Below are positions 15,350 to 58,941 of a stretch of 64,000 bases of DNA, piece by piece (the stretch's first letter is position 1; each line of letters begins with the position of its first letter). Origin of the DNA: an uncultured Gammaproteobacteria bacterium (GTDB lineage Bacteria; Patescibacteriota; Microgenomatia; UBA8517; JACQJR01); contig CAYTZB010000004.1 in the NCBI GenBank assembly GCA_964442455.1, positions 7,425 through 71,424 of the forward strand, given 5' to 3'. The notes beneath the pieces are model-generated. The model had not been told where the DNA came from, ran no database searches, and saw only the letters and a program-made list of their open reading frames with translations. Position numbers and translations under genes: made by a program.

Positions 15350-15895
15350 CTAATGGTCTAGAATAACTGTCACTGGACCGTCGAGTTCCGTTGAAATTTC
15401 CATATATTCTCCAAATCTTCCAGTTTTTACTTTTACACTTTGCGCTTTTAGCTTACTTATGACATCCTCCCCGCTTTGAAAAGCGGGGTTTCCTCTAAAG
15501 GAGGATGACATATCAGCGTTCAATTCATCTCCCGACTGAAAGTCGGGAGTTTTCTTGAATGCTGTTATAAAGTATTCATATAAAGGTTGGGCAATTTCGG
15601 GGCGGGCGGCTTTTACGAAGCTGGGGCGGTTGCCACCGGAGGTATCAGCATACAACGTAAATTGTGAAACAACAAGCATTTCTCCACCAACATCGTTTAC
15701 TGTTAAATTCATCTTTCCTGTCTGATCAGACATTATTCGTAACTTTGTTAGCTTTTCCGCTAAAAATTCAGCGTCTTTTTCTGTATCTCCATCTTTTATT
15801 CCCACTAACACAAAGAGTCCCTTTCCAATTTTACTAACAATCTTTTTGTTAACGGAAACAGATGCCGAAGAAACACGCTGGACGACACATTTCAT
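15350..15895 (-). CDS. dtd: D-aminoacyl-tRNA deacylase carrying a roughly 30-aa in-frame insertion
   Basis: The SQFTLYAD motif, the N-terminal MKCVVQRV region and the C-terminal GPVT motif are present. At 181 aa it is longer than the typical ~145 aa. Confidence 0.85.
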   Translation of the reverse strand: MKCVVQRVSSASVSVNKKIVSKIGKGLFVLVGIKDGDTEKDAEFLAEKLTKLRIMSDQTGKMNLTVNDVGGEMLVVSQFTLYADTSGGNRPSFVKAARPEIAQPLYEYFITAFKKTPDFQSGDELNADMSSSFRGNPAFQSGEDVISKLKAQSVKVKTGRFGEYMEISTELDGPVTVILDH

Positions 15896-19900: not shown

Positions 19901-20318
19901 CGTCAAGGAGCAGGACAATCGCCCCACCCTTTCTGGTTGGGATCAAATAGGAAGAAAATCGTGATCGGAAAGGGTGGGGAGGAAAGTCCAGGCAGCAGGA
20001 AGCAGGGGACCCCGCGTAAGCGGGGACGGGTACCCTTCGACGTAGCTCAGGGTAGCCTGAGTAAAATCGAAGGCTAACCGCTAGTGGTCCTTCACTGAAA
20101 AGTGTAGGACACCAAACCTGAATTGACAGGGTTGGAGAGTCACAGAGACGATCATTAGTCTAAACCCTGACGGGTATGACCAATGAGTGAAACGCTGACA
20201 ATCCTCCCCGCTGCAACCTCCGAATGGTCCGCTATCAGGATGCTTCCCCGAGGACCAAAGTTGAGGGCACAGACAGATGATTGTCTAGAACAGAACCTGG
20301 CTTACTCGCTCCTTGACA
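19901..20318 (+). ncRNA. rnpB: RNase P RNA, bacterial type A
   Basis: It contains the conserved GGAGGAAAGTCCAGGC (P4 5' strand region) and ACAGAACCTGGCTTA (P4 3' strand). The 5' GTCAAGGAGC pairs perfectly with the 3' GCTCCTTGAC to form P1. The region is GC-rich relative to its flanks. Confidence 0.8.
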
Positions 20319-20451
20319 AATTAAACTATAAATAGCACGAGCAAGGTTCCCGAAGGGGTTCTTACTCGCTCCTTGGCAAAAATACTATCTAGATAATGCG
20401 AGCAAGAGGAGCGTAGGCTGAAAGCCGAGAACTCTTACTCGCTCCTTGACC
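20301..20451 (+). repeat. three direct copies of the 18-nt rnpB 3'-terminal P1 strand (cttactcgctccttgRca) at 20301, 20361 and 20434
   Basis: The copies are exact or 1-mismatch. Their spacing is irregular (60 and 73 nt) and the spacers contain short hairpins. Confidence 0.5.
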
Positions 20452-28541: not shown

Positions 28542-28994
28542 TCAACTAAAGCTTGTCAACCTAGAATTAATAACTTTTCGAATTACTCCCCAAGAAAATC
28601 CTCGGCTTGATAAAAAATTTACTATTTTTTTCTTTCTTGTTTCCTTGTCTAACTTTTCCCATACCCTCTTTCTCTTTTCAATTAATTGAAAAACTAGTTC
28701 TTCGTCATTTAAGCCACTTTCCGAAACCACTTTTTGTGCTAGATCTTTATCAACGCCCTTCTTTACTAGTTCAAGTATCAACATCCGCAGCGATTTGGGG
28801 CGAAAAGTGGTACGCTGTTCAATCCACCAACGGGCAAACGCTTCGTCGTCAACAAGTCCTGCTTTTTTTAATTCTTGGAGGGCTACTTTACAATCCTCCC
28901 CGCTTATTTTTTTTCGGACTAACCACCGCTTAATCTCAAATTCAGAGCGAGGACGAATGGTGGTAAATTTTATGAGGCGATCCAACAATTCCAT
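28542..28994 (-). CDS. recX: RecA regulator RecX
   Basis: It is 150 aa with a three-repeat helical architecture and RecX-like conservation, located downstream of recA. Confidence 0.75.
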   Translation of the reverse strand: MELLDRLIKFTTIRPRSEFEIKRWLVRKKISGEDCKVALQELKKAGLVDDEAFARWWIEQRTTFRPKSLRMLILELVKKGVDKDLAQKVVSESGLNDEELVFQLIEKRKRVWEKLDKETRKKKIVNFLSSRGFSWGVIRKVINSRLTSFS

Positions 28995-29135
28995 AAATTC
29001 GAAGCACGAAGCACTAAATTCGAAACAAACTCAAAATTATAAATACAAAATAACAAAAAAGTTTAGAATTTGAAGCATTTGAATTTAAATATTGTTTAGA
29101 GTTTCGGATTTGAAATTTCGAATTTCCGAGCTTAC
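28995..29135. repeat. family-A AT-rich palindromic intergenic repeat, copy a (inverted relative to copies b-d)
   Basis: It carries aaattcgaaac...ccaaaatt...gaatttaaatattgtttag...atttcgaatttcc with cgaagcacgaagcac arms. Related copies lie at 35110, 38873 and 58784. Confidence 0.5.
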
Positions 29136-29140
29136 ATCGG

Positions 29141-30190: not shown

Positions 30191-30255
30191 GGCATTCTTC
30201 TTGTACTACTTCTTCGGGAAAATTTCAATATGTAAAATGTGTCGGGGAGCCGGGA

Positions 30256-30283
30256 ATATCAGTTTTGCTCGCAAAACTGATAT
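30256..30283. promoter_or_regulatory. 28-bp near-perfect palindrome (11-bp arms ATATCAGTTTT / AAAACTGATAT) in the recA upstream region; candidate operator
   Basis: The inverted repeat is exact. It lies 66-93 nt upstream of the recA start, between tRNA-Pro and recA. Confidence 0.35.
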
Positions 30284-30376
30284 GTCTTACCTCACTTTGT
30301 TGTTCAAATGCTTTCGCTTTCGCAAGTCGCGAGGGGCGATATTGAACACGCACCTTTACCCCGTACCGATTTCTTG

Positions 30377-30448
30377 TCGGGGTGCCCAGAATTGAACTGG
30401 GACCTTACGCACCCCATGCGCAAATACTAACCGTTATACTACACCCCG
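30377..30448 (-). tRNA. tRNA-Pro (anticodon GGG)
   Basis: A cloverleaf was folded manually. The acceptor stem is CGGGGTG/CACCCCG, the T-arm is CCCAG-TTCAATT-CTGGG and the anticodon stem is TGCGC/GCGTA with loop ATGGGGT. The CCA end is not encoded. Confidence 0.8.
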
Positions 30449-35109: not shown

Positions 35110-35286
35110 ATAATTAAAATTCGAAATTCTAATATCGAAATTCGAAACAAATCCAAAATTATAATGTTCTAAATTATAAGCAGAGCTTGTTTCTCGCTAA
35201 CGCTCAAAATAAACGTTTTATCCGCCAGATGGCGGATTGAATTTAAATATTGTTTAGGATTTCGTGCTTCGTGCTTCGAATTTATC
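35110..35286. repeat. family-A palindromic repeat, copy b, between rplM and rpsI; it has an embedded family-B-like segment plus an ATCCGCCAGATGGCGGAT hairpin, and overlaps the last ~10 codons of rplM
   Basis: The sequence similarity to the repeats at 28995, 38873 and 58784 is visible by eye. Confidence 0.45.
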
Positions 35287-38872: not shown

Positions 38873-39001
38873 ATAACCTCCTTCGGAGGAAATCCGAAAT
38901 TCTAAATCCGAAATACGAAACGTTTCGAATCTTATATTTTTATAATTTGTTTCGGATTTCGATATTCGTGCTTCGAATTTCCAACTTTGCACACAAAGTT
39001 G
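38873..39001. repeat. family-A palindromic repeat, copy c, between rpmJ and rpsM, including a perfect 8-bp-stem hairpin CCAACTTTGCACACAAAGTTGG
   Basis: It is visibly similar to the copies at 28995, 35110 and 58784. Confidence 0.45.
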
Positions 39002-45253: not shown

Positions 45254-45622
45254 TTAAACAACCTCCTTTGCAAGTGAAACAATCTTCCCGAATCCTGCTT
45301 CTCGGACTTCTCGTGCAATAGGACCAAAAATGCGCGTACCGCGGGGATTTCCTTGATTGTCGATAACAACCCCTGCATTGTCATCGAACCTGACAGCCGA
45401 GCCATCTCTTCTTTTATGTTCCTTTCTCGTTCTCACTACAACCACATCAACAAGTTCTCTATCTTTTACCACGCCTGTGGGATCTGCACCTTTCACCACA
45501 CATTTCACCACTACTCCCACAATCGCAAATCGCCGCTTTGAAAAGCGCGGAATGCCAATAACTTTCAAATAGTTCGCGCCTGAATTATCAGCCGAGCTGA
45601 GTATTGAGTTAAGTTGAACCAT
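45254..45622 (-). CDS. rplN: 50S ribosomal protein L14
   Basis: It belongs to the L14 family. Confidence 0.95.
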   Translation of the reverse strand: MVQLNSILSSADNSGANYLKVIGIPRFSKRRFAIVGVVVKCVVKGADPTGVVKDRELVDVVVVRTRKEHKRRDGSAVRFDDNAGVVIDNQGNPRGTRIFGPIAREVREAGFGKIVSLAKEVV

Positions 45623-48776: not shown

Positions 48777-49082
48777 TTATACTTTCCTTTTTCCTCCTTT
48801 TTTCTCTGTTGCAAAAAGATCAATTGTCTGTCCTTTCTCCAACTCCACAATTGCCTTCTTTATATCAGAGAGTTTTTTTACAAGACGCCGCCCCCCAAAT
48901 CGCCGGGTTTTTCCAGAAATTTTAACTGTCTTGACACCTTTTACCTTTACGCCAAAGGCGTTCTCGACTACATGAGTAATTTGGTTTTTGTTTGCACTGG
49001 CTACAACCTCAAAGGTAAACTTACCAGCCTCTGCGTCCTTTTTTGATTTCTCAGTTATCAACGGTCTTAAAAGTATGCTCAT
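48777..49082 (-). CDS. rplW: 50S ribosomal protein L23
   Basis: It belongs to the L23 family. Its ATG overlaps the rplD stop (ATGA). Confidence 0.85.
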
Positions 49083-49789
49083 ATTTTCTTTACTCTCTCT
49101 TTAATGACATCCTCCCCACTTTTCAAAGCTGGGTTTCCTCGCGCCGCCGGCATAGCCTTTGGCGACGCACGGCTAAGGGAGGCTTTCATCAATTCCAACC
49201 CAGCTATTGTCAAAACCACATTTGGGTGGTTAATCACCTCATATGCATTCACGTCGCTGGCAGGCAGTAAAGTTATTCCTGCTATGTTACGAGCACCTTG
49301 TACAAACGCTTTTTCTCCGCCGTGAAGAATCAACAGTCGCTCGCTTTCTAAACCAAGCTTTTTAAGTAACCCGACAATTGATTTTGTTTTTCCATCTATC
49401 TCTTTTGGGTCAATAAAGAATAGCTTATTCTCATCCAACCGTCTTGATAGCGCAACAGCAAGTGCCGCTCTTATAAACTTTTGTGGCAAGTGTCGCTTCC
49501 TCTTTGCCCCGACTGGACCATGAACCACACCTCCGCCAACAAATATCGGGGCTTTTTTCATTCCGTGACGAGCACGACCGGTCCCTTTCTGACGGTATAT
49601 TTTTGCAGTACTCCCCGCTACTTCCCCTCGCGTTTTCGCCTTATGGGTACCAGTATGAGCTCTCGTCTGATAGACATAGTAAGCTTGGCTCAGCAGCCTA
49701 TCATTCGGTTTTTGCCCAAAAAGCTCGTCTGGAAGAGAAATTTTCCCAGTACTCTTCCCTATTGGTGTGTAAACAGCAACTTGTTTCAT
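49079..49789 (-). CDS. rplD: 50S ribosomal protein L4 with a ~30-aa C-terminal extension that contains a copy of the dtd-type GC-rich element
   Basis: The L4 family core is intact. The tail RASPKAMPAARGNPALKSGEDVI is encoded by 49103-49185. Confidence 0.9.
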   Translation of the reverse strand: MKQVAVYTPIGKSTGKISLPDELFGQKPNDRLLSQAYYVYQTRAHTGTHKAKTRGEVAGSTAKIYRQKGTGRARHGMKKAPIFVGGGVVHGPVGAKRKRHLPQKFIRAALAVALSRRLDENKLFFIDPKEIDGKTKSIVGLLKKLGLESERLLILHGGEKAFVQGARNIAGITLLPASDVNAYEVINHPNVVLTIAGLELMKASLSRASPKAMPAARGNPALKSGEDVIKERVKKI

Positions 49790-58783: not shown

Positions 58784-58941
58784 AAATAATTAAATCCGAA
58801 ATTCGAATATCGAAATCCTAAACAAATTCCAAATTTTAAATTCAAATGATTGAAACAGTTTGAAATTTAGAAAATTTGAATTTAATTATTGTTTCGAATT
58901 TCGTGCTTAGAATTTCGAATTTCCAAAATTATATCACAATT
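58784..58941. repeat. family-A palindromic repeat, copy d, filling the rpoC-rpsL spacer
   Basis: It is visibly similar to the copies at 28995, 35110 and 38873, with inverted arms ccgaaattcgaatatcgaaat / atttcgaatttcg. Confidence 0.5.
58928..58936 (-). promoter_or_regulatory. candidate extended -10 promoter (TGaTATAAT on the minus strand) for the str operon, directly after the rpoC stop
   Basis: The motif is read from the reverse complement. No convincing -35 was found. Confidence 0.3.

What the first reader, a model, noticed from the sequence alone, without database searches (positions are those of the whole stretch)
15461..15560. GC-rich hairpin element (gacatcctccccRcttt..aaaRcNgggtttcctc) inserted in-frame in dtd, with a second copy in the rplD tail at 49103-49140 and a possible third in recX
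In dtd the sequence tgacatcctccccgctttgaaaagcggggtttcctc at 15461-15496 is followed by a second similar hairpin, cccgactgaaagtcggg. In the L4 gene tgacatcctccccacttttcaaagctgggtttcctc at 49103-49140 shares an exact 13-mer plus gggtttcctc. Both copies are translated in-frame on the minus strand as RGNPA[FL][QK]SGEDVI. The insert lengthens DTD by about 30 aa and contributes to a ~30-aa L4 C-terminal extension. The 12-mer atcctccccgct also occurs at 28891 inside recX, encoding SGED. The behaviour is analogous to Rickettsia palindromic elements, which insert in-frame into ORFs, but in a different lineage.
Basis: seen in the sequence. Interest (0 to 1): 0.7.

Follow-up and report, generated by a model that had tools for sequence, protein, structure and literature searches.

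The report
Gene-less IS200/IS605 transposon translated inside genes
The repeated GC-rich hairpin is part of a 108-base gene-less mobile element of the IS200/IS605 family that has landed in frame inside the dtd and ribosomal protein L4 genes of a Patescibacteria (CPR) bacterium, where it reads through as extra protein; it is a clear new example of a known kind of selfish DNA.

Summary
The repeat is real. Window 15459-15495 and 49104-49140 share 33 of 37 bases, and both read in frame as RGNPA[FL][QK]SGEDVI. The unit is not 36 nt, however. In dtd it is a 108-nt, two-hairpin element (15459-15566, active strand = window minus strand). The closest DTD orthologues lack exactly these 108 nt.

Related copies, some with the conserved stretch identical, lie in other Patescibacteria contigs, mostly between genes. 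Its fold is kept by compensatory changes in 24 of 39 pairs.

It has the anatomy of an IS200/IS605-family end-to-end fusion, a "PATE":
- It inserts 3' of TTAT, with no target duplication and no terminal inverted repeats.
- Its hairpins sit 17 nt and 10 nt from the two ends.
- Its guide tetranucleotides pair with both cleavage sites by the IS608 rule.
- Its right end matches the sequence just after a Haloarcula tnpB gene, and its left end matches the left end of a tnpB element in a huge phage.
- Its active strand is the G-rich strand in 17 of 19 copies.

The L4 copy is a right-end-only fossil. The recX 12-mer is not a copy. This is a new member of a known kind, and the mobilising transposase was not found.

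The parts
15459..15566 (-). Full 108-nt element (LE+RE fusion, PATE-like). The active 'top' strand is the window minus strand: 5'-AACAGCATTC...GGGGAGGATGTCAT-3'. It is translated in frame within dtd as (I)TAFKKTPDFQSGDELNADMSSSFRGNPAFQSGEDV(I).
   Evidence: Orthologous dtd genes L022 and L023 lack exactly these 108 nt. Covariance model R1 scores it 140.7 bits. It is 108/108 identical to the copy in L4 of L020, whereas the surrounding ribosomal operon is 86.8% identical.
15567..15570 (-). Target / left cleavage tetranucleotide (TAM, C_L) TTAT. It lies immediately 5' of the element on the top strand and is not part of the element.
   Evidence: The empty site reads TAC TTT AT|A AGT. TTAT lies 5' of the left end in 11 of the 14 intact left ends, with CTAT twice and TCAT once.
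15529..15549 (-). Left-end subterminal hairpin (IP_L): CTCCCGAC-TTTCA-GTCGGGAG on the top strand. Its foot is 17 nt from the left end.
   Evidence: Folding. 8 of its 9 pairs show changes on both sides across copies. The homologous hairpin in phage LR756508.1, upstream of tnpB, lies at the same 17-nt distance.
15550..15553 (-). Left guide tetranucleotide G_L (AAAA on the top strand), just 5' of the IP_L foot.
   Evidence: It pairs with C_L TTAT by the IS608 rule (c1:g2, c2:g1, A.A, c4:g4). Copy L018 covaries, with CTAT opposite AGAA (rule from PMC5934647 and PMC3201880).
15514..15564 (-). Left-end lower stem (CAGCGTTCAA / TTGAATGCTG on the + strand). It encloses IP_L and a conserved internal loop.
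   Evidence: 6 of its 10 pairs show changes on both sides. The stem is also present in the phage tnpB element's left end. Unexplained: it has 20 G.T against 2 A.C cells when read on the + strand.
15469..15488 (-). Right-end subterminal hairpin (IP_R): CCCCGCTT-TTCA-AAGCGGGG on the top strand, an 8-bp stem with a UUCA-type tetraloop. Its foot is 10 nt from the right end.
   Evidence: 5 of its 8 pairs show compensatory changes and 100% of cells are paired. It matches the 'RE-like tetraloop' of IS1341-type elements and of HgcC (PMC4615843), and the hairpin after the Haloarcula tnpB gene.
15489..15492 (-). Right guide tetranucleotide G_R (GAAA on the top strand).
   Evidence: It pairs with C_R TCAT by the IS608 rule in 13 of the 16 copies that retain a right end. 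The Haloarcula right end has the same GAAA/TCAT. The phage element and IS608 both have GAAT/TCAA (PMC5934647).
15459..15462 (-). Right cleavage tetranucleotide (TEM, C_R) TCAT, the last 4 nt of the element on the top strand.
15350..15895 (-). dtd (D-aminoacyl-tRNA deacylase) ORF of 181 aa that carries the insert.
   Evidence: PF02580. In the AlphaFold model the core has pLDDT above 90, and the insert (residues 117-152) is below 50 and splits a helix.
49104..49182 (-). Right-end-only fossil of the element in the 3' end of rplD. The left end and the target are deleted (72 nt relative to L020). The IP_R stem is broken by two synonymous changes and the loop is flipped.
   Evidence: Three-way DNA alignment of window, L020 and L014. 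R1 gives only 16 bits. Protein alignment A5.
49141..49173 (-). 33-nt GC-rich extra hairpin (GCGCCGCCGGCATAGCCTTTGGCGACGCACGGC on the + strand) nested in the right end, a subfamily marker.
   Evidence: The same 33 nt lie at the same position in the full copy in L014, which is a different locus and sample.
49079..49789 (-). rplD (ribosomal protein L4) ORF of 236 aa. Its stop codon overlaps the rplW start.
   Evidence: PF00573. It is 100% identical to a 'Candidatus Microgenomates bacterium' L4 (P0131).

Best explanation
The feature is a 108-nt non-autonomous transposable element of the IS200/IS605 family. It consists of a left end fused directly to a right end with no gene between them, i.e. a palindrome-associated transposable element (PATE). 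It occurs in Patescibacteria (Microgenomates and Woesebacteria).

Inferred mechanism, by analogy with IS608:
- A Y1 (HUH) TnpA supplied in trans binds the two subterminal hairpins on the top strand as single-stranded DNA at the lagging-strand template.
- The guide tetranucleotides (AAAA, GAAA), which lie 5' of each hairpin foot, pair with the cleavage sites (TTAT in the left flank, TCAT at the right tip).
- The top strand is excised as a circle and pasted 3' of another TTAT-like tetranucleotide, with no target duplication.

Why it can sit inside genes:
- The element is 36 codons long, and one of its six reading frames is open.
- An insertion into the sense strand after the second base of an ATN codon is therefore read through as a 36-residue peptide flanked by Ile.
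- Such insertions survive where the protein tolerates them. In DTD the insert is a disordered excursion in a surface helix. In L4 it lies in the C-terminal tail.

The window's L4 copy is an immobilised right-end remnant, kept in frame by selection on L4.

Shown here: the boundaries, the target, the filled and empty sites, the conserved fold, the guide/cleavage complementarity, the homology of both ends to ends of tnpB-carrying elements, and the strand bias.

Inferred, not shown: the enzyme, the single-stranded intermediate, and present-day activity.
For: 1. Filled versus empty site. DTD orthologues 80% identical outside the insert lack exactly 108 nt. The junction reads TTT AT|[element]|A AGT.

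2. Dispersal. The genome and metagenome scans returned 21 loci, about 14 of them distinct after merging re-assemblies of one place; the look-up of two peptide-search ORFs added one more place, and the covariance model found two further diverged copies within loci already held. Most copies are intergenic. Several contigs end inside the element, and one copy sits next to a scaffold gap.

3. Recent spread. The dtd copy is 108/108 identical to the L4 copy of another species (L020), whose ribosomal operon is only 86.8% identical to the window's.

4. Conserved fold. 96% of cells are paired and 24 of 39 pairs show changes on both sides, against 4-5 in the slid controls. Diverged copies L025b and L006b keep the architecture with different hairpin sequences.

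5. IS200/IS605 anatomy.
- There are no terminal inverted repeats and no target duplication.
- TTAT lies 5' of the left end in 11 of 14 intact left ends.
- The hairpin feet lie 17 nt and 10 nt from the ends, against 19 and 10 in IS608 (PMC3201880).
- C_L/G_L = TTAT/AAAA and C_R/G_R = TCAT/GAAA satisfy the IS608 pairing scheme at both ends. L018 covaries as CTAT/AGAA (PMC5934647).

6. End homology.
- The right end aligns to AGAGGAAACCgCGCcgTTCAcgGCGcGGAGGATGTCAT, which starts 7 nt after the stop of a Haloarcula marismortui pNG300 TnpB gene. Eight further haloarchaeal plasmids also match.
- The left end aligns to TTAT|AGACACGTTCAAGAAAA[hairpin]ATGAATTGAAC directly upstream of a tnpB gene in phage LR756508.1. 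That element's own right end is GAAT[hairpin]AGACGTCAA.

7. Rfam. The only recurrent hit is HgcC (RF00062), full length, on the top strand of the nine copies tested, at 21-38 bits. HgcC carries the right-end-like UUCA tetraloop of IS1341-type elements and PATEs (PMC4615843).

8. Strand bias. The inferred top strand is the G-rich strand in 17 of 19 independent copies. My binomial estimate is p of about 4e-4. [quoted passage not shown]
Against: - No tnpA (Y1) or tnpB gene is present in the 64-kb window (phmmer), and no autonomous element with both of these ends was found in a Patescibacteria contig.
- The one Y1_Tnp gene near a copy (L016) has different flanking palindromes of its own.
- Three left-end targets (TCAT in L020, CTAT in L026, CCAT in L025b) do not match their guides. 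Those in L020 and L026 could be later flank mutations. In L020 the change is a synonymous TTT to TTC.
- The left-end lower stem shows G.T pairs almost only on the bottom strand (20 against 2), which the top-strand model does not predict.
- GC skew on short contigs is partly confounded with gene orientation.
- The BLAST E-values for the end homologies are modest (2e-3 to 0.3) because the matches are short.
- Copy number is low: two copies in this 64-kb window.
Confidence: 0.85

Rival explanations
1. The element is a PATE that also acts as a guide-RNA (omega-RNA-like) gene. Its top strand is transcribed, inside dtd and rplD by the host promoters, to give an HgcC-like RNA ending at the right end and followed by flank sequence. 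A TnpB encoded elsewhere would use that RNA to cut empty alleles and so keep or re-home the element.
For: - The right end matches the sequence just 3' of tnpB genes, which is where omega-RNA scaffolds end.
- HgcC-like full-length hits fall on the top strand of every copy tested.
- The top strand is the sense strand of both host genes, so the element is transcribed in that orientation.
- PATEs are reported often to encode omega-RNAs used in trans (PMC10055086).
- The same L4 site is occupied by two different subfamily variants.
- 11 of the 28 mismatches between the window and a 99.8%-identical genome cluster within 44 nt just 3' of the right end.
Against: - No tnpB is present in the window.
- The region upstream of the right end is a left end, not the 3' part of tnpB that supplies most of a known omega-RNA scaffold.
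- All HgcC scores are below Rfam's threshold.
- There are no expression data.
- The mismatch cluster and the shared L4 site have simpler explanations: an ordinary recombination patch, and target specificity combined with few tolerated sites.
Confidence: 0.12
2. The element is a REP/REPIN-type element moved by a domesticated RAYT (TnpA_REP), not an IS200/IS605 derivative.
For: - It is hairpin-rich, short and mostly intergenic.
- A Y1_Tnp (PF01797) gene lies 200 nt from the copy in L016.
- RAYTs and IS200/IS605 TnpA enzymes are related HUH enzymes (PMC3333891).
Against: - The two hairpins differ in sequence and sit asymmetrically (17 and 10 nt from the ends). They are not an inverted REP doublet.
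- There is no conserved GTAG-type 5' tetranucleotide.
- Both ends match ends of tnpB-carrying insertion sequences.
- The L016 Y1 gene is flanked by its own, unrelated 19-bp inverted repeats.
- Only about one in 16 distinct loci has a Y1 gene nearby.
Confidence: 0.06
3. The element is a fixed structured RNA or regulatory cassette (two intrinsic terminators plus a -10-like TATAAT on the + strand) that was duplicated by recombination. It is not a transposon.
For: - The + strand carries two terminator-like hairpins, each followed by a T-run.
- The + strand sequence following the element reads TGnTATAAT and lies just upstream of gene starts in L001 and L006.
- The fold is strongly conserved.
- The lower stem shows G.U-type pairs on the + strand.
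Against: - The element sits inside two ORFs on the strand antisense to these signals.
- The filled and empty sites differ by a precise 108 nt.
- The 'TATAA' is the conserved target in the flank, and the T-runs are the complements of the A-rich guide sequences.
- Its orientation relative to neighbouring genes is mixed, yet it is uniform relative to GC skew.
- Contigs break within it.
Confidence: 0.04
4. RGNPA[FL][QK]SGEDVI is an ancestral or functional peptide motif shared by DTD and L4, and the DNA similarity is secondary.
For: Both copies are in frame, and the two stem-breaking differences in the L4 copy are synonymous.
Against: - It is absent from 118 of the 120 DTD homologues listed, including the closest ones, and from L4 orthologues.
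- Most copies are intergenic, and only short spurious ORFs carry the peptide.
- Stems change by compensatory base changes that alter the peptide.
- DNA identity across species (108/108) far exceeds that of the host genes.
Confidence: 0.01

Closest known systems
Palindrome-associated transposable elements (PATEs): gene-less LE+RE fusions of IS200/IS605 elements. Examples are Haloquadratum walsbyi, Halobacterium salinarum VNG_R0052 and the PATE-like elements of Geobacillus stearothermophilus (PMC4615843, PMC3119063, PMC10055086).
   Same: - About 100 nt long, with no gene: a left end fused to a right end.
- The right-end hairpin has an 8-bp stem and a UUCA loop near the 3' tip.
- A conserved tetranucleotide lies 5' of the left end.
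- It depends on a transposase supplied in trans.
   Different: - The host is a Patescibacteria (CPR) bacterium.
- Copies lie in frame inside dtd and rplD and, by the ORF, are translated. I found no report of that for a PATE in the papers I read.
- The left end has an extra lower stem.
- Copy number is low.
IS1341-type / IS200-IS605 elements carrying tnpB: the Haloarcula marismortui pNG300 element (NC_006391.1), the element in uncultured huge phage LR756508.1, and the paradigm IS608.
   Same: - The right end matches Haloarcula in all functional positions: G_R GAAA, an 8-bp stem, a TTCA loop, the tail AGGATGTCAT and C_R TCAT.
- The left end is 83% identical over 52 aligned nt to the phage element, with the same TTAT target, the same 17-nt spacing and the same ATGAATTGAAC.
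- The guide/cleavage pairing scheme is that of IS608.
   Different: - It has no tnpB or tnpA.
- Left-end and right-end similarity point to two different autonomous relatives.
- No autonomous partner was found in the host lineage.
Rfam RF00062, HgcC family RNA (Methanocaldococcus jannaschii).
   Same: - The three hairpins come in the same order.
- The junction sequences are shared (GAUGA..UGAAC and CCCCGC..GCGGGGAGGA.GUCA).
- All nine copies tested give full-length alignments on the top strand.
   Different: - Scores are 21-38 bits, below the gathering score of 50.
- HgcC is archaeal, and its function is unknown.
Rickettsia palindromic elements (RPEs).
   Same: These are also short palindromic repeats found in frame inside protein-coding genes as well as between genes, tolerated as extra peptide segments. 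This comparison rests on my own knowledge of Ogata et al. 2000.
   Different: - The host lineage is different.
- I know of no enzyme or target rule established for RPEs, whereas this element has a defined IS200/IS605-type anatomy.
- Sequence relatedness was not tested.
REP/REPIN elements with RAYT (TnpA_REP).
   Same: Both are hairpin DNA presumably handled as single strands by a Y1 HUH enzyme, and both are mostly intergenic.
   Different: - There is no inverted doublet and no GTAG-type motif.
- The ends are asymmetric, with IS608-like guide/cleavage pairs.
- The ends match tnpB elements.

Membership tests
IS200/IS605-family non-autonomous element (PATE) | Inserts 3' of a conserved tetranucleotide that stays outside the element, with no target-site duplication. 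| tested here: met
   Comparing filled and empty dtd sites gives a net 108 nt 3' of TTAT. The 5' flank is TTAT in 11, CTAT in 2 and TCAT in 1 of the 14 intact left ends; the diverged copy L025b has CCAT. The 3' flank is not conserved.
IS200/IS605-family non-autonomous element (PATE) | No terminal inverted repeats. Subterminal hairpins at both ends, placed asymmetrically (in IS608 the left cleavage site is 19 nt 5' of the IP_L foot and the right one 10 nt 3' of the IP_R foot). | tested here: met
   The IP_L foot is 17 nt from the left end and the IP_R foot 10 nt from the right end. The IS608 figures are from PMC3201880. The phage relative also has 17 nt.
IS200/IS605-family non-autonomous element (PATE) | Guide tetranucleotides 5' of each hairpin foot pair with the cleavage sites. 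In IS608 these are TTAC/AAAG and TCAA/GAAT, with A+16:T-3 and A+17:T-4. | tested here: met
   TTAT/AAAA and TCAT/GAAA give c1:g2, c2:g1 and c4:g4 as Watson-Crick pairs and c3.g3 as A.A at both ends in the canonical copies. L018 covaries as CTAT/AGAA. L020, L026 and the diverged L025b each have one mismatch at the left end (PMC5934647).
IS200/IS605-family non-autonomous element (PATE) | The ends are related to ends of elements that encode tnpA or tnpB. | tested here: met
   The right end matches sequence 7 nt after a Haloarcula TnpB stop codon. The left end matches sequence upstream of a phage tnpB gene. The matches are short, with E-values of 2e-3 to 7e-3.
IS200/IS605-family non-autonomous element (PATE) | The active strand lies on the lagging-strand template, giving an orientation bias relative to replication. 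| tested here: met
   The top strand is the G-rich strand in 17 of 19 independent copies. The rule is from PMC5027513. GC skew is only a proxy and is partly confounded with gene orientation.
IS200/IS605-family non-autonomous element (PATE) | A cognate Y1 TnpA is present in the same genome to mobilise it. | tested here: inconclusive
   None is present in the 64-kb window or in most loci. One Y1_Tnp lies near the L016 copy, but it has different flanking palindromes. Whole genomes could not be searched.
IS200/IS605-family non-autonomous element (PATE) | Excision as a single-stranded circle, followed by reinsertion. | not testable with these tools
   This needs read-level data (RE-LE junction reads, empty/filled polymorphism) or biochemistry.
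Rfam RF00062 HgcC | Covariance-model score at or above the gathering score of 50 bits. | tested here: not met
   Nine copies score 21.5-38.4 bits, all with full-length alignments.
TnpB omega-RNA | Encoded at the 3' end of tnpB and the right end, with the guide taken from the flank, and bound by TnpB. | tested here: inconclusive
   The right-end part is shared with tnpB 3' regions. No tnpB is adjacent or in the window. No Rfam omega-RNA or IS605-orfB family matched.
Rickettsia palindromic elements | Short palindromic repeat inserted in frame in ORFs and kept as a peptide insert. | tested here: met
   Found in dtd and rplD, with in-frame N-terminal fusions in L004/L009 and L018.
Rickettsia palindromic elements | Sequence membership of an RPE family in a Rickettsia host. 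| not tested
   No RPE model or sequences were available. The host here is Patescibacteria (names given).
REP/REPIN-RAYT | REP hairpins with a conserved 5' tetranucleotide, arranged as inverted doublets and flanking or clustering with a RAYT gene. | tested here: not met
   There are two different hairpins in direct order and no doublet symmetry. The L016 Y1 gene is flanked by unrelated palindromes.

The most novel reading that the evidence does not exclude
The element would be more than passive selfish DNA. Because its active strand is the sense strand of dtd and rplD, the host promoters transcribe an HgcC-like, right-end-terminated RNA followed by flank sequence. That RNA would serve in trans as a guide RNA for a TnpB nuclease encoded elsewhere. 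TnpB would cut element-free alleles, which would drive re-homing into the same essential-gene sites.

This reading would account for two observations: two different subfamily variants occupy the identical L4 site, and a recombination-like patch lies just 3' of the dtd copy.
Probability: 0.1. Interest if true: 0.75.

Novelty: new member of a known kind. Interest (0 to 1): 0.45.

Why it matters
- It gives a mechanistic identity, an IS200/IS605 PATE with a readable target and guide code, to a Rickettsia-like "selfish DNA inside proteins" phenomenon. It does so in the Candidate Phyla Radiation, whose small genomes are usually described as poor in mobile DNA.
- It shows how the family's replication-strand rule places such elements in the sense orientation of co-directionally transcribed genes. 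A 36-codon element with one open frame can then become a peptide insert, even in a ribosomal protein.
- It explains assembly breaks and odd extensions in CPR proteins. Annotators should not read these as lineage-specific domains.
- The near-identity of the right end's functional positions with haloarchaeal tnpB elements and with the archaeal HgcC RNA ties an orphan Rfam family more firmly to transposon ends.

Tried and rejected
- **Viral contigs.** Two pattern scans found nothing.
- **Peptide search.** A 40-aa query returned only 10 short ORFs and missed the window's own DTD and L4. It shows the element is rare, but the search is not exhaustive.
- **rplN look-alike.** The hairpin at 45530-45550 encodes part of the L14 sequence (PRFSKRR) and has no flanking similarity, so it is a chance match.
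- **recX 12-mer (28893).** There is no hairpin and no model hit. The same 12-mer occurs in RNase P RNA.
- **TA or 4-bp target duplication, and terminal inverted repeats.** Neither is supported across copies. The apparent TTAT...TTAT in dtd is the target plus the TCAT-like element tip.
- **RAYT link through L016.** That Y1 gene has its own, unrelated palindromes.
- **Small ORF on the + strand (AGGAGG-ATG...).** The Shine-Dalgarno sequence abuts the ATG and the C-terminus is not conserved, so I dropped it.
- **C/D-box or hammerhead readings of GAUGA/CUGA.** There was no Rfam support.
- **HgcC membership.** All copies score below threshold.
- **L008 as the autonomous partner.** It has a tnpB gene with similar hairpins, but in the order RE-like...tnpB...LE-like, on a 1.5-kb contig. 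This is unresolved.
- **tnpA or tnpB in the window.** None was found.
- **Literature.** A search for MITEs in Patescibacteria found nothing relevant.
Full report
**Observation.**
- Window 15459-15495 and 49104-49140 share 33 of 37 bases.
- A 32-nt consensus pattern hits only these two sites, with 0.00 expected from shuffles.
- Both lie on the antisense (+) strand of real genes: dtd at 15350-15895(-) and rplD at 49079-49789(-). Both are read in frame as RGNPA[FL][QK]SGEDVI.
- The four differences in the L4 copy are two synonymous third-position changes, which break the stem, and a flip of the loop centre (TGAA to TTCA).
- The recX 12-mer exists at 28893-28904. It has no hairpin partner and no covariance-model hit with filters off.
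- The same 12-mer lies inside the RNase P RNA gene at 20201. I do not count recX as a copy.

**True extent.** One degenerate-pattern scan of GTDB genomes and one of JGI/ENA metagenomes returned 6 and 15 loci.
- Aligning them shows that the hairpin and the 'second hairpin' belong to one unit. On the + strand it runs from ATGACATCC... to ...GAATGCTGTT.
- The closest DTD orthologues (P0012 and P0013, 80% identical outside the insert, 145 aa against 181 aa) lack exactly 36 residues.
- At the DNA level they lack exactly 108 nt. The filled site reads TAC TTT AT|AACAGC...GGATGTCAT|A AGT AAG on the coding strand, and the empty site reads TAT TTT GTT GAT AAG.
- The element is therefore window 15459-15566. 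Of the 120 DTD homologues listed, only the near-identical P0011 also carries the insert.

**A dispersed, structured family.**
- Copies occur in Woesebacteria, in 'Patescibacteria group' MAGs, and in groundwater and sediment metagenomes of 34-47% GC. Most are intergenic.
- Several contigs end inside the element, and one copy abuts a scaffold gap.
- A 40-aa peptide query found only ten short ORFs, so the family is rare.
- A covariance model built from ten copies also detects diverged copies, L025:13958-14070 and L006:3367-3482. These keep the architecture with quite different hairpin sequences.
- On 18 aligned copies, 96% of cells pair and 24 of 39 pairs show changes on both sides, against 4-5 in the slid controls.
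- Either strand folds far better than shuffles, with z of about -7 to -8.
- The dtd copy is 108/108 identical to the copy in the L4 gene of another species (L020), whose ribosomal operon is 86.8% identical to the window's. The element has therefore spread recently relative to host divergence.

**What kind of element.** Rfam has no match at gathering level. The only recurrent sub-threshold hit is HgcC (RF00062). It is full length and falls on the window minus strand, at 32.5 bits here and 21-38 bits in eight other copies. PMC4615843 reports that HgcC carries the 'RE-like tetraloop' (8-bp stem, UUCA loop) of the right ends of IS1341-type tnpB elements and of PATEs, which are LE+RE fusions. Read on the minus ('top') strand, the element has that anatomy:
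- TTAT | AACAGCATTCAAGAAAA [CTCCCGAC-TTTCA-GTCGGGAG] ATGAATTGAACGCTGATATGTCATCCTCCTTTAGAGGAAA [CCCCGCTT-TTCA-AAGCGGGG] AGGATGTCAT |
- It has no terminal inverted repeats and no duplication.
- The tetranucleotide 5' of the left end is TTAT in 11, CTAT in 2 and TCAT in 1 of the 14 intact left ends. The 3' flank is not conserved.
- The hairpin feet lie 17 nt and 10 nt from the ends. In IS608 the figures are 19 and 10, and the left cleavage site lies outside the element (PMC3201880).
- IS608 recognises its cleavage sites by pairing with guide tetranucleotides 5' of each hairpin foot: C_L TTAC with G_L AAAG, and C_R TCAA with G_R GAAT, with A+16:T-3 and A+17:T-4 (PMC5934647).
- Applying that scheme (c1:g2, c2:g1, c3.g3 = A.A, c4:g4), TTAT/AAAA and TCAT/GAAA fit at both ends in all canonical copies.
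- Copy L018 has target CTAT with guide AGAA, a compensating change. L020 (TCAT), L026 (CTAT) and the diverged L025b (CCAT) each show one left-end mismatch.

**Homology of the ends.**
- BLAST of the top strand against plasmids returns haloarchaeal replicons almost exclusively. The annotated best hit starts 7 nt after the stop of a TnpB gene (OrfB_IS605 plus TNB domains) on Haloarcula marismortui pNG300.
- That hit reads AGAGGAAACCgCGCcgTTCAcgGCGcGGAGGATGTCAT|. The guide, loop, 10-nt tail and tip are the same as here, and the stem changes are compensated.
- Against phages, the left half matches a 484-kb uncultured phage (LR756508.1). There, TTAT|AGACACGTTCAAGAAAA[TTCCCGG-TTTTA-GCCGGGGG]ATGAATTGAAC directly precedes a 405-aa TnpB gene.
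- That gene is followed by GAAT[CTCCTCGC-TTTA-GCGAGGGG]AGACGTCAA|, which is the IS608 guide and tip pair.
- Both halves of the window element are therefore ends of tnpB-type IS200/IS605 elements.

**Strand bias.** The family inserts into the lagging-strand template (PMC5027513).
- The window's + strand has negative GC skew throughout.
- The inferred top strand is the G-rich strand in 17 of 19 independent copies. My binomial estimate is about 4e-4.
- Skew on short contigs is only a proxy.

**The L4 copy.**
- L4 orthologues end ...ELLKETFGK....
- In L020 a full canonical element sits after ETF, at target TCAT, followed by IKERVKKI*.
- The window has a 72-nt deletion at the same site. It removes the target and the whole left end.
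- The window also has a 33-nt GC-rich hairpin nested in the right end. That hairpin is shared with the full copy in L014 at an unrelated locus.
- Both changes are multiples of three. The remnant (49104-49182) is an immobilised fossil kept in frame.

**Consequences for the proteins.**
- The element is 36 codons long. On the top strand only one frame is open, and all three bottom-strand frames contain stops.
- Both coding insertions follow the second base of an ATN codon, which explains the flanking Ile residues.
- In the AlphaFold model of DTD the core is confident, with pLDDT mostly above 90. Residues 117-152 are below 50, and the insert splits one helix into residues 99-112 and 143-152. This fits a tolerated disordered excursion, although function was not tested.
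- In-frame N-terminal fusions also occur, to an ASCH-like gene in L004/L009 and in L018.
- On the bottom strand the A-rich guides become T-runs after each hairpin, so the element looks like two intrinsic terminators. This is a likely reason why only sense insertions survive in genes.

**Rivals.**
- An ancestral peptide is excluded by the orthologue alignments and by the intergenic copies.
- A fixed regulatory RNA cassette does not explain the precise filled and empty sites or the skew-linked orientation.
- A REP/RAYT origin fits poorly. The ends are asymmetric and match tnpB elements, and the one nearby Y1 gene (L016) has its own palindromes.
- A guide-RNA role for a TnpB acting in trans is not excluded and is my 'novel case'. 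PATEs are said often to encode omega-RNAs (PMC10055086).

**Gaps and oddities.**
- No tnpA or tnpB is present in the window, and no autonomous partner was found in this lineage. L008 carries a tnpB gene with similar hairpins, but the contig is too short to interpret.
- The left-end lower stem has 20 G.T against 2 A.C cells on the bottom strand, which is unexplained.
- The window and GCA_016182755.1 are 99.8% identical over 19.5 kb, yet 11 of their 28 mismatches fall in 44 nt of dtd just 3' of the element.

**Verdict.** The element is a new, well-defined member of a known kind, an IS200/IS605-derived PATE, notable for being read through as protein in dtd and in a ribosomal protein gene of a CPR bacterium.

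Noticed in passing
window 28994-29138, 35117-35283, 38890-38980, 58791-58935: An AT-rich intergenic repeat family (AAATTCGAAATTCGAAAC..., up to about 145 nt, 63-85% identical between copies) recurs between genes. It is unrelated to the element studied.
   Followed up: no
window 19903-20320 (+): A bacterial class A RNase P RNA scores 99.5 bits, just under Rfam's gathering score of 100, so it is missed at default thresholds. It contains the same 12-mer, ATCCTCCCCGCT, as the element and recX.
   Followed up: partly
window 30253-30330 (-), between tRNA 30377-30448 (-) and recA: The hairpin GACATATCAGTTTTGC-GAG-CAAAACTGATAT shares GACATATCAG...CTGATAT with the element's LE/RE junction. It gives a weak model hit (10 bits) in the opposite orientation, and may be a very decayed copy or chance.
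   Followed up: partly
window about 15374-15417 (dtd nt 478-521), compared with L024: The window and GCA_016182755.1 are 99.8% identical over 19.5 kb. Yet 11 of their 28 mismatches cluster in 44 nt of dtd, 40-85 nt 3' of the element's right end, which looks like a recombination patch.
   Followed up: partly
window 45530-45550 (rplN): The hairpin TCGCCGCTTTGAAAAGCGCGG resembles the element's right-end hairpin (90% over 21 nt). It encodes PRFSKRR within L14 and has no flanking similarity, so I judge it chance.
   Followed up: yes
L016 9647-10380: A 229-aa Y1_Tnp (PF01797) gene is flanked by perfect 19-bp inverted repeats (GGGTGTAACCTTTAAAGGT). It lies 200 nt from an element copy and next to tRNA-Pro. 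It is a separate RAYT-like unit.
   Followed up: partly
L008 258-1468: A 375-aa TnpB gene (OrfB_IS605 plus TNB) on a 36% GC metagenome contig has an RE-like hairpin (GAGGAAACCCCTG...CAGGGGAGGA) upstream. A hairpin like the element's left-end hairpin (CTCCTGACTTTAGTCAGGGG) lies at its 3' end, which is the reverse of the expected order.
   Followed up: partly
L010 1520-1707; L017 1435-1597; L014 706-851: Other short GC-rich segments (33 nt in L014; larger ones in L010 and L017, whose copies run to 188 and 163 nt) are nested inside element copies. In L010 the segment is flanked by a GGATG repeat. This suggests further mini-insertions or modular hairpin gain.
   Followed up: no
L002, L004 (CAYIKF01 'Gammaproteobacteria' MAG) compared with L019, L020, L009: Over the 105-106 nt compared, which run into the element, contigs of a MAG labelled Gammaproteobacteria are identical to Hainich groundwater Microgenomates contigs (an L4-L23 junction and an ASCH-like gene). 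This suggests bin contamination.
   Followed up: no
L004 / L009 1-305: The element's right end is fused in frame to the N-terminus of a small ASCH-like ORF (...MSSSFRGNPAFQSGEDVI-KKKIWPEFFKEVVEGRKKFEVRL...). The element's internal ATG may therefore supply the start codon. The contigs end inside the element.
   Followed up: partly
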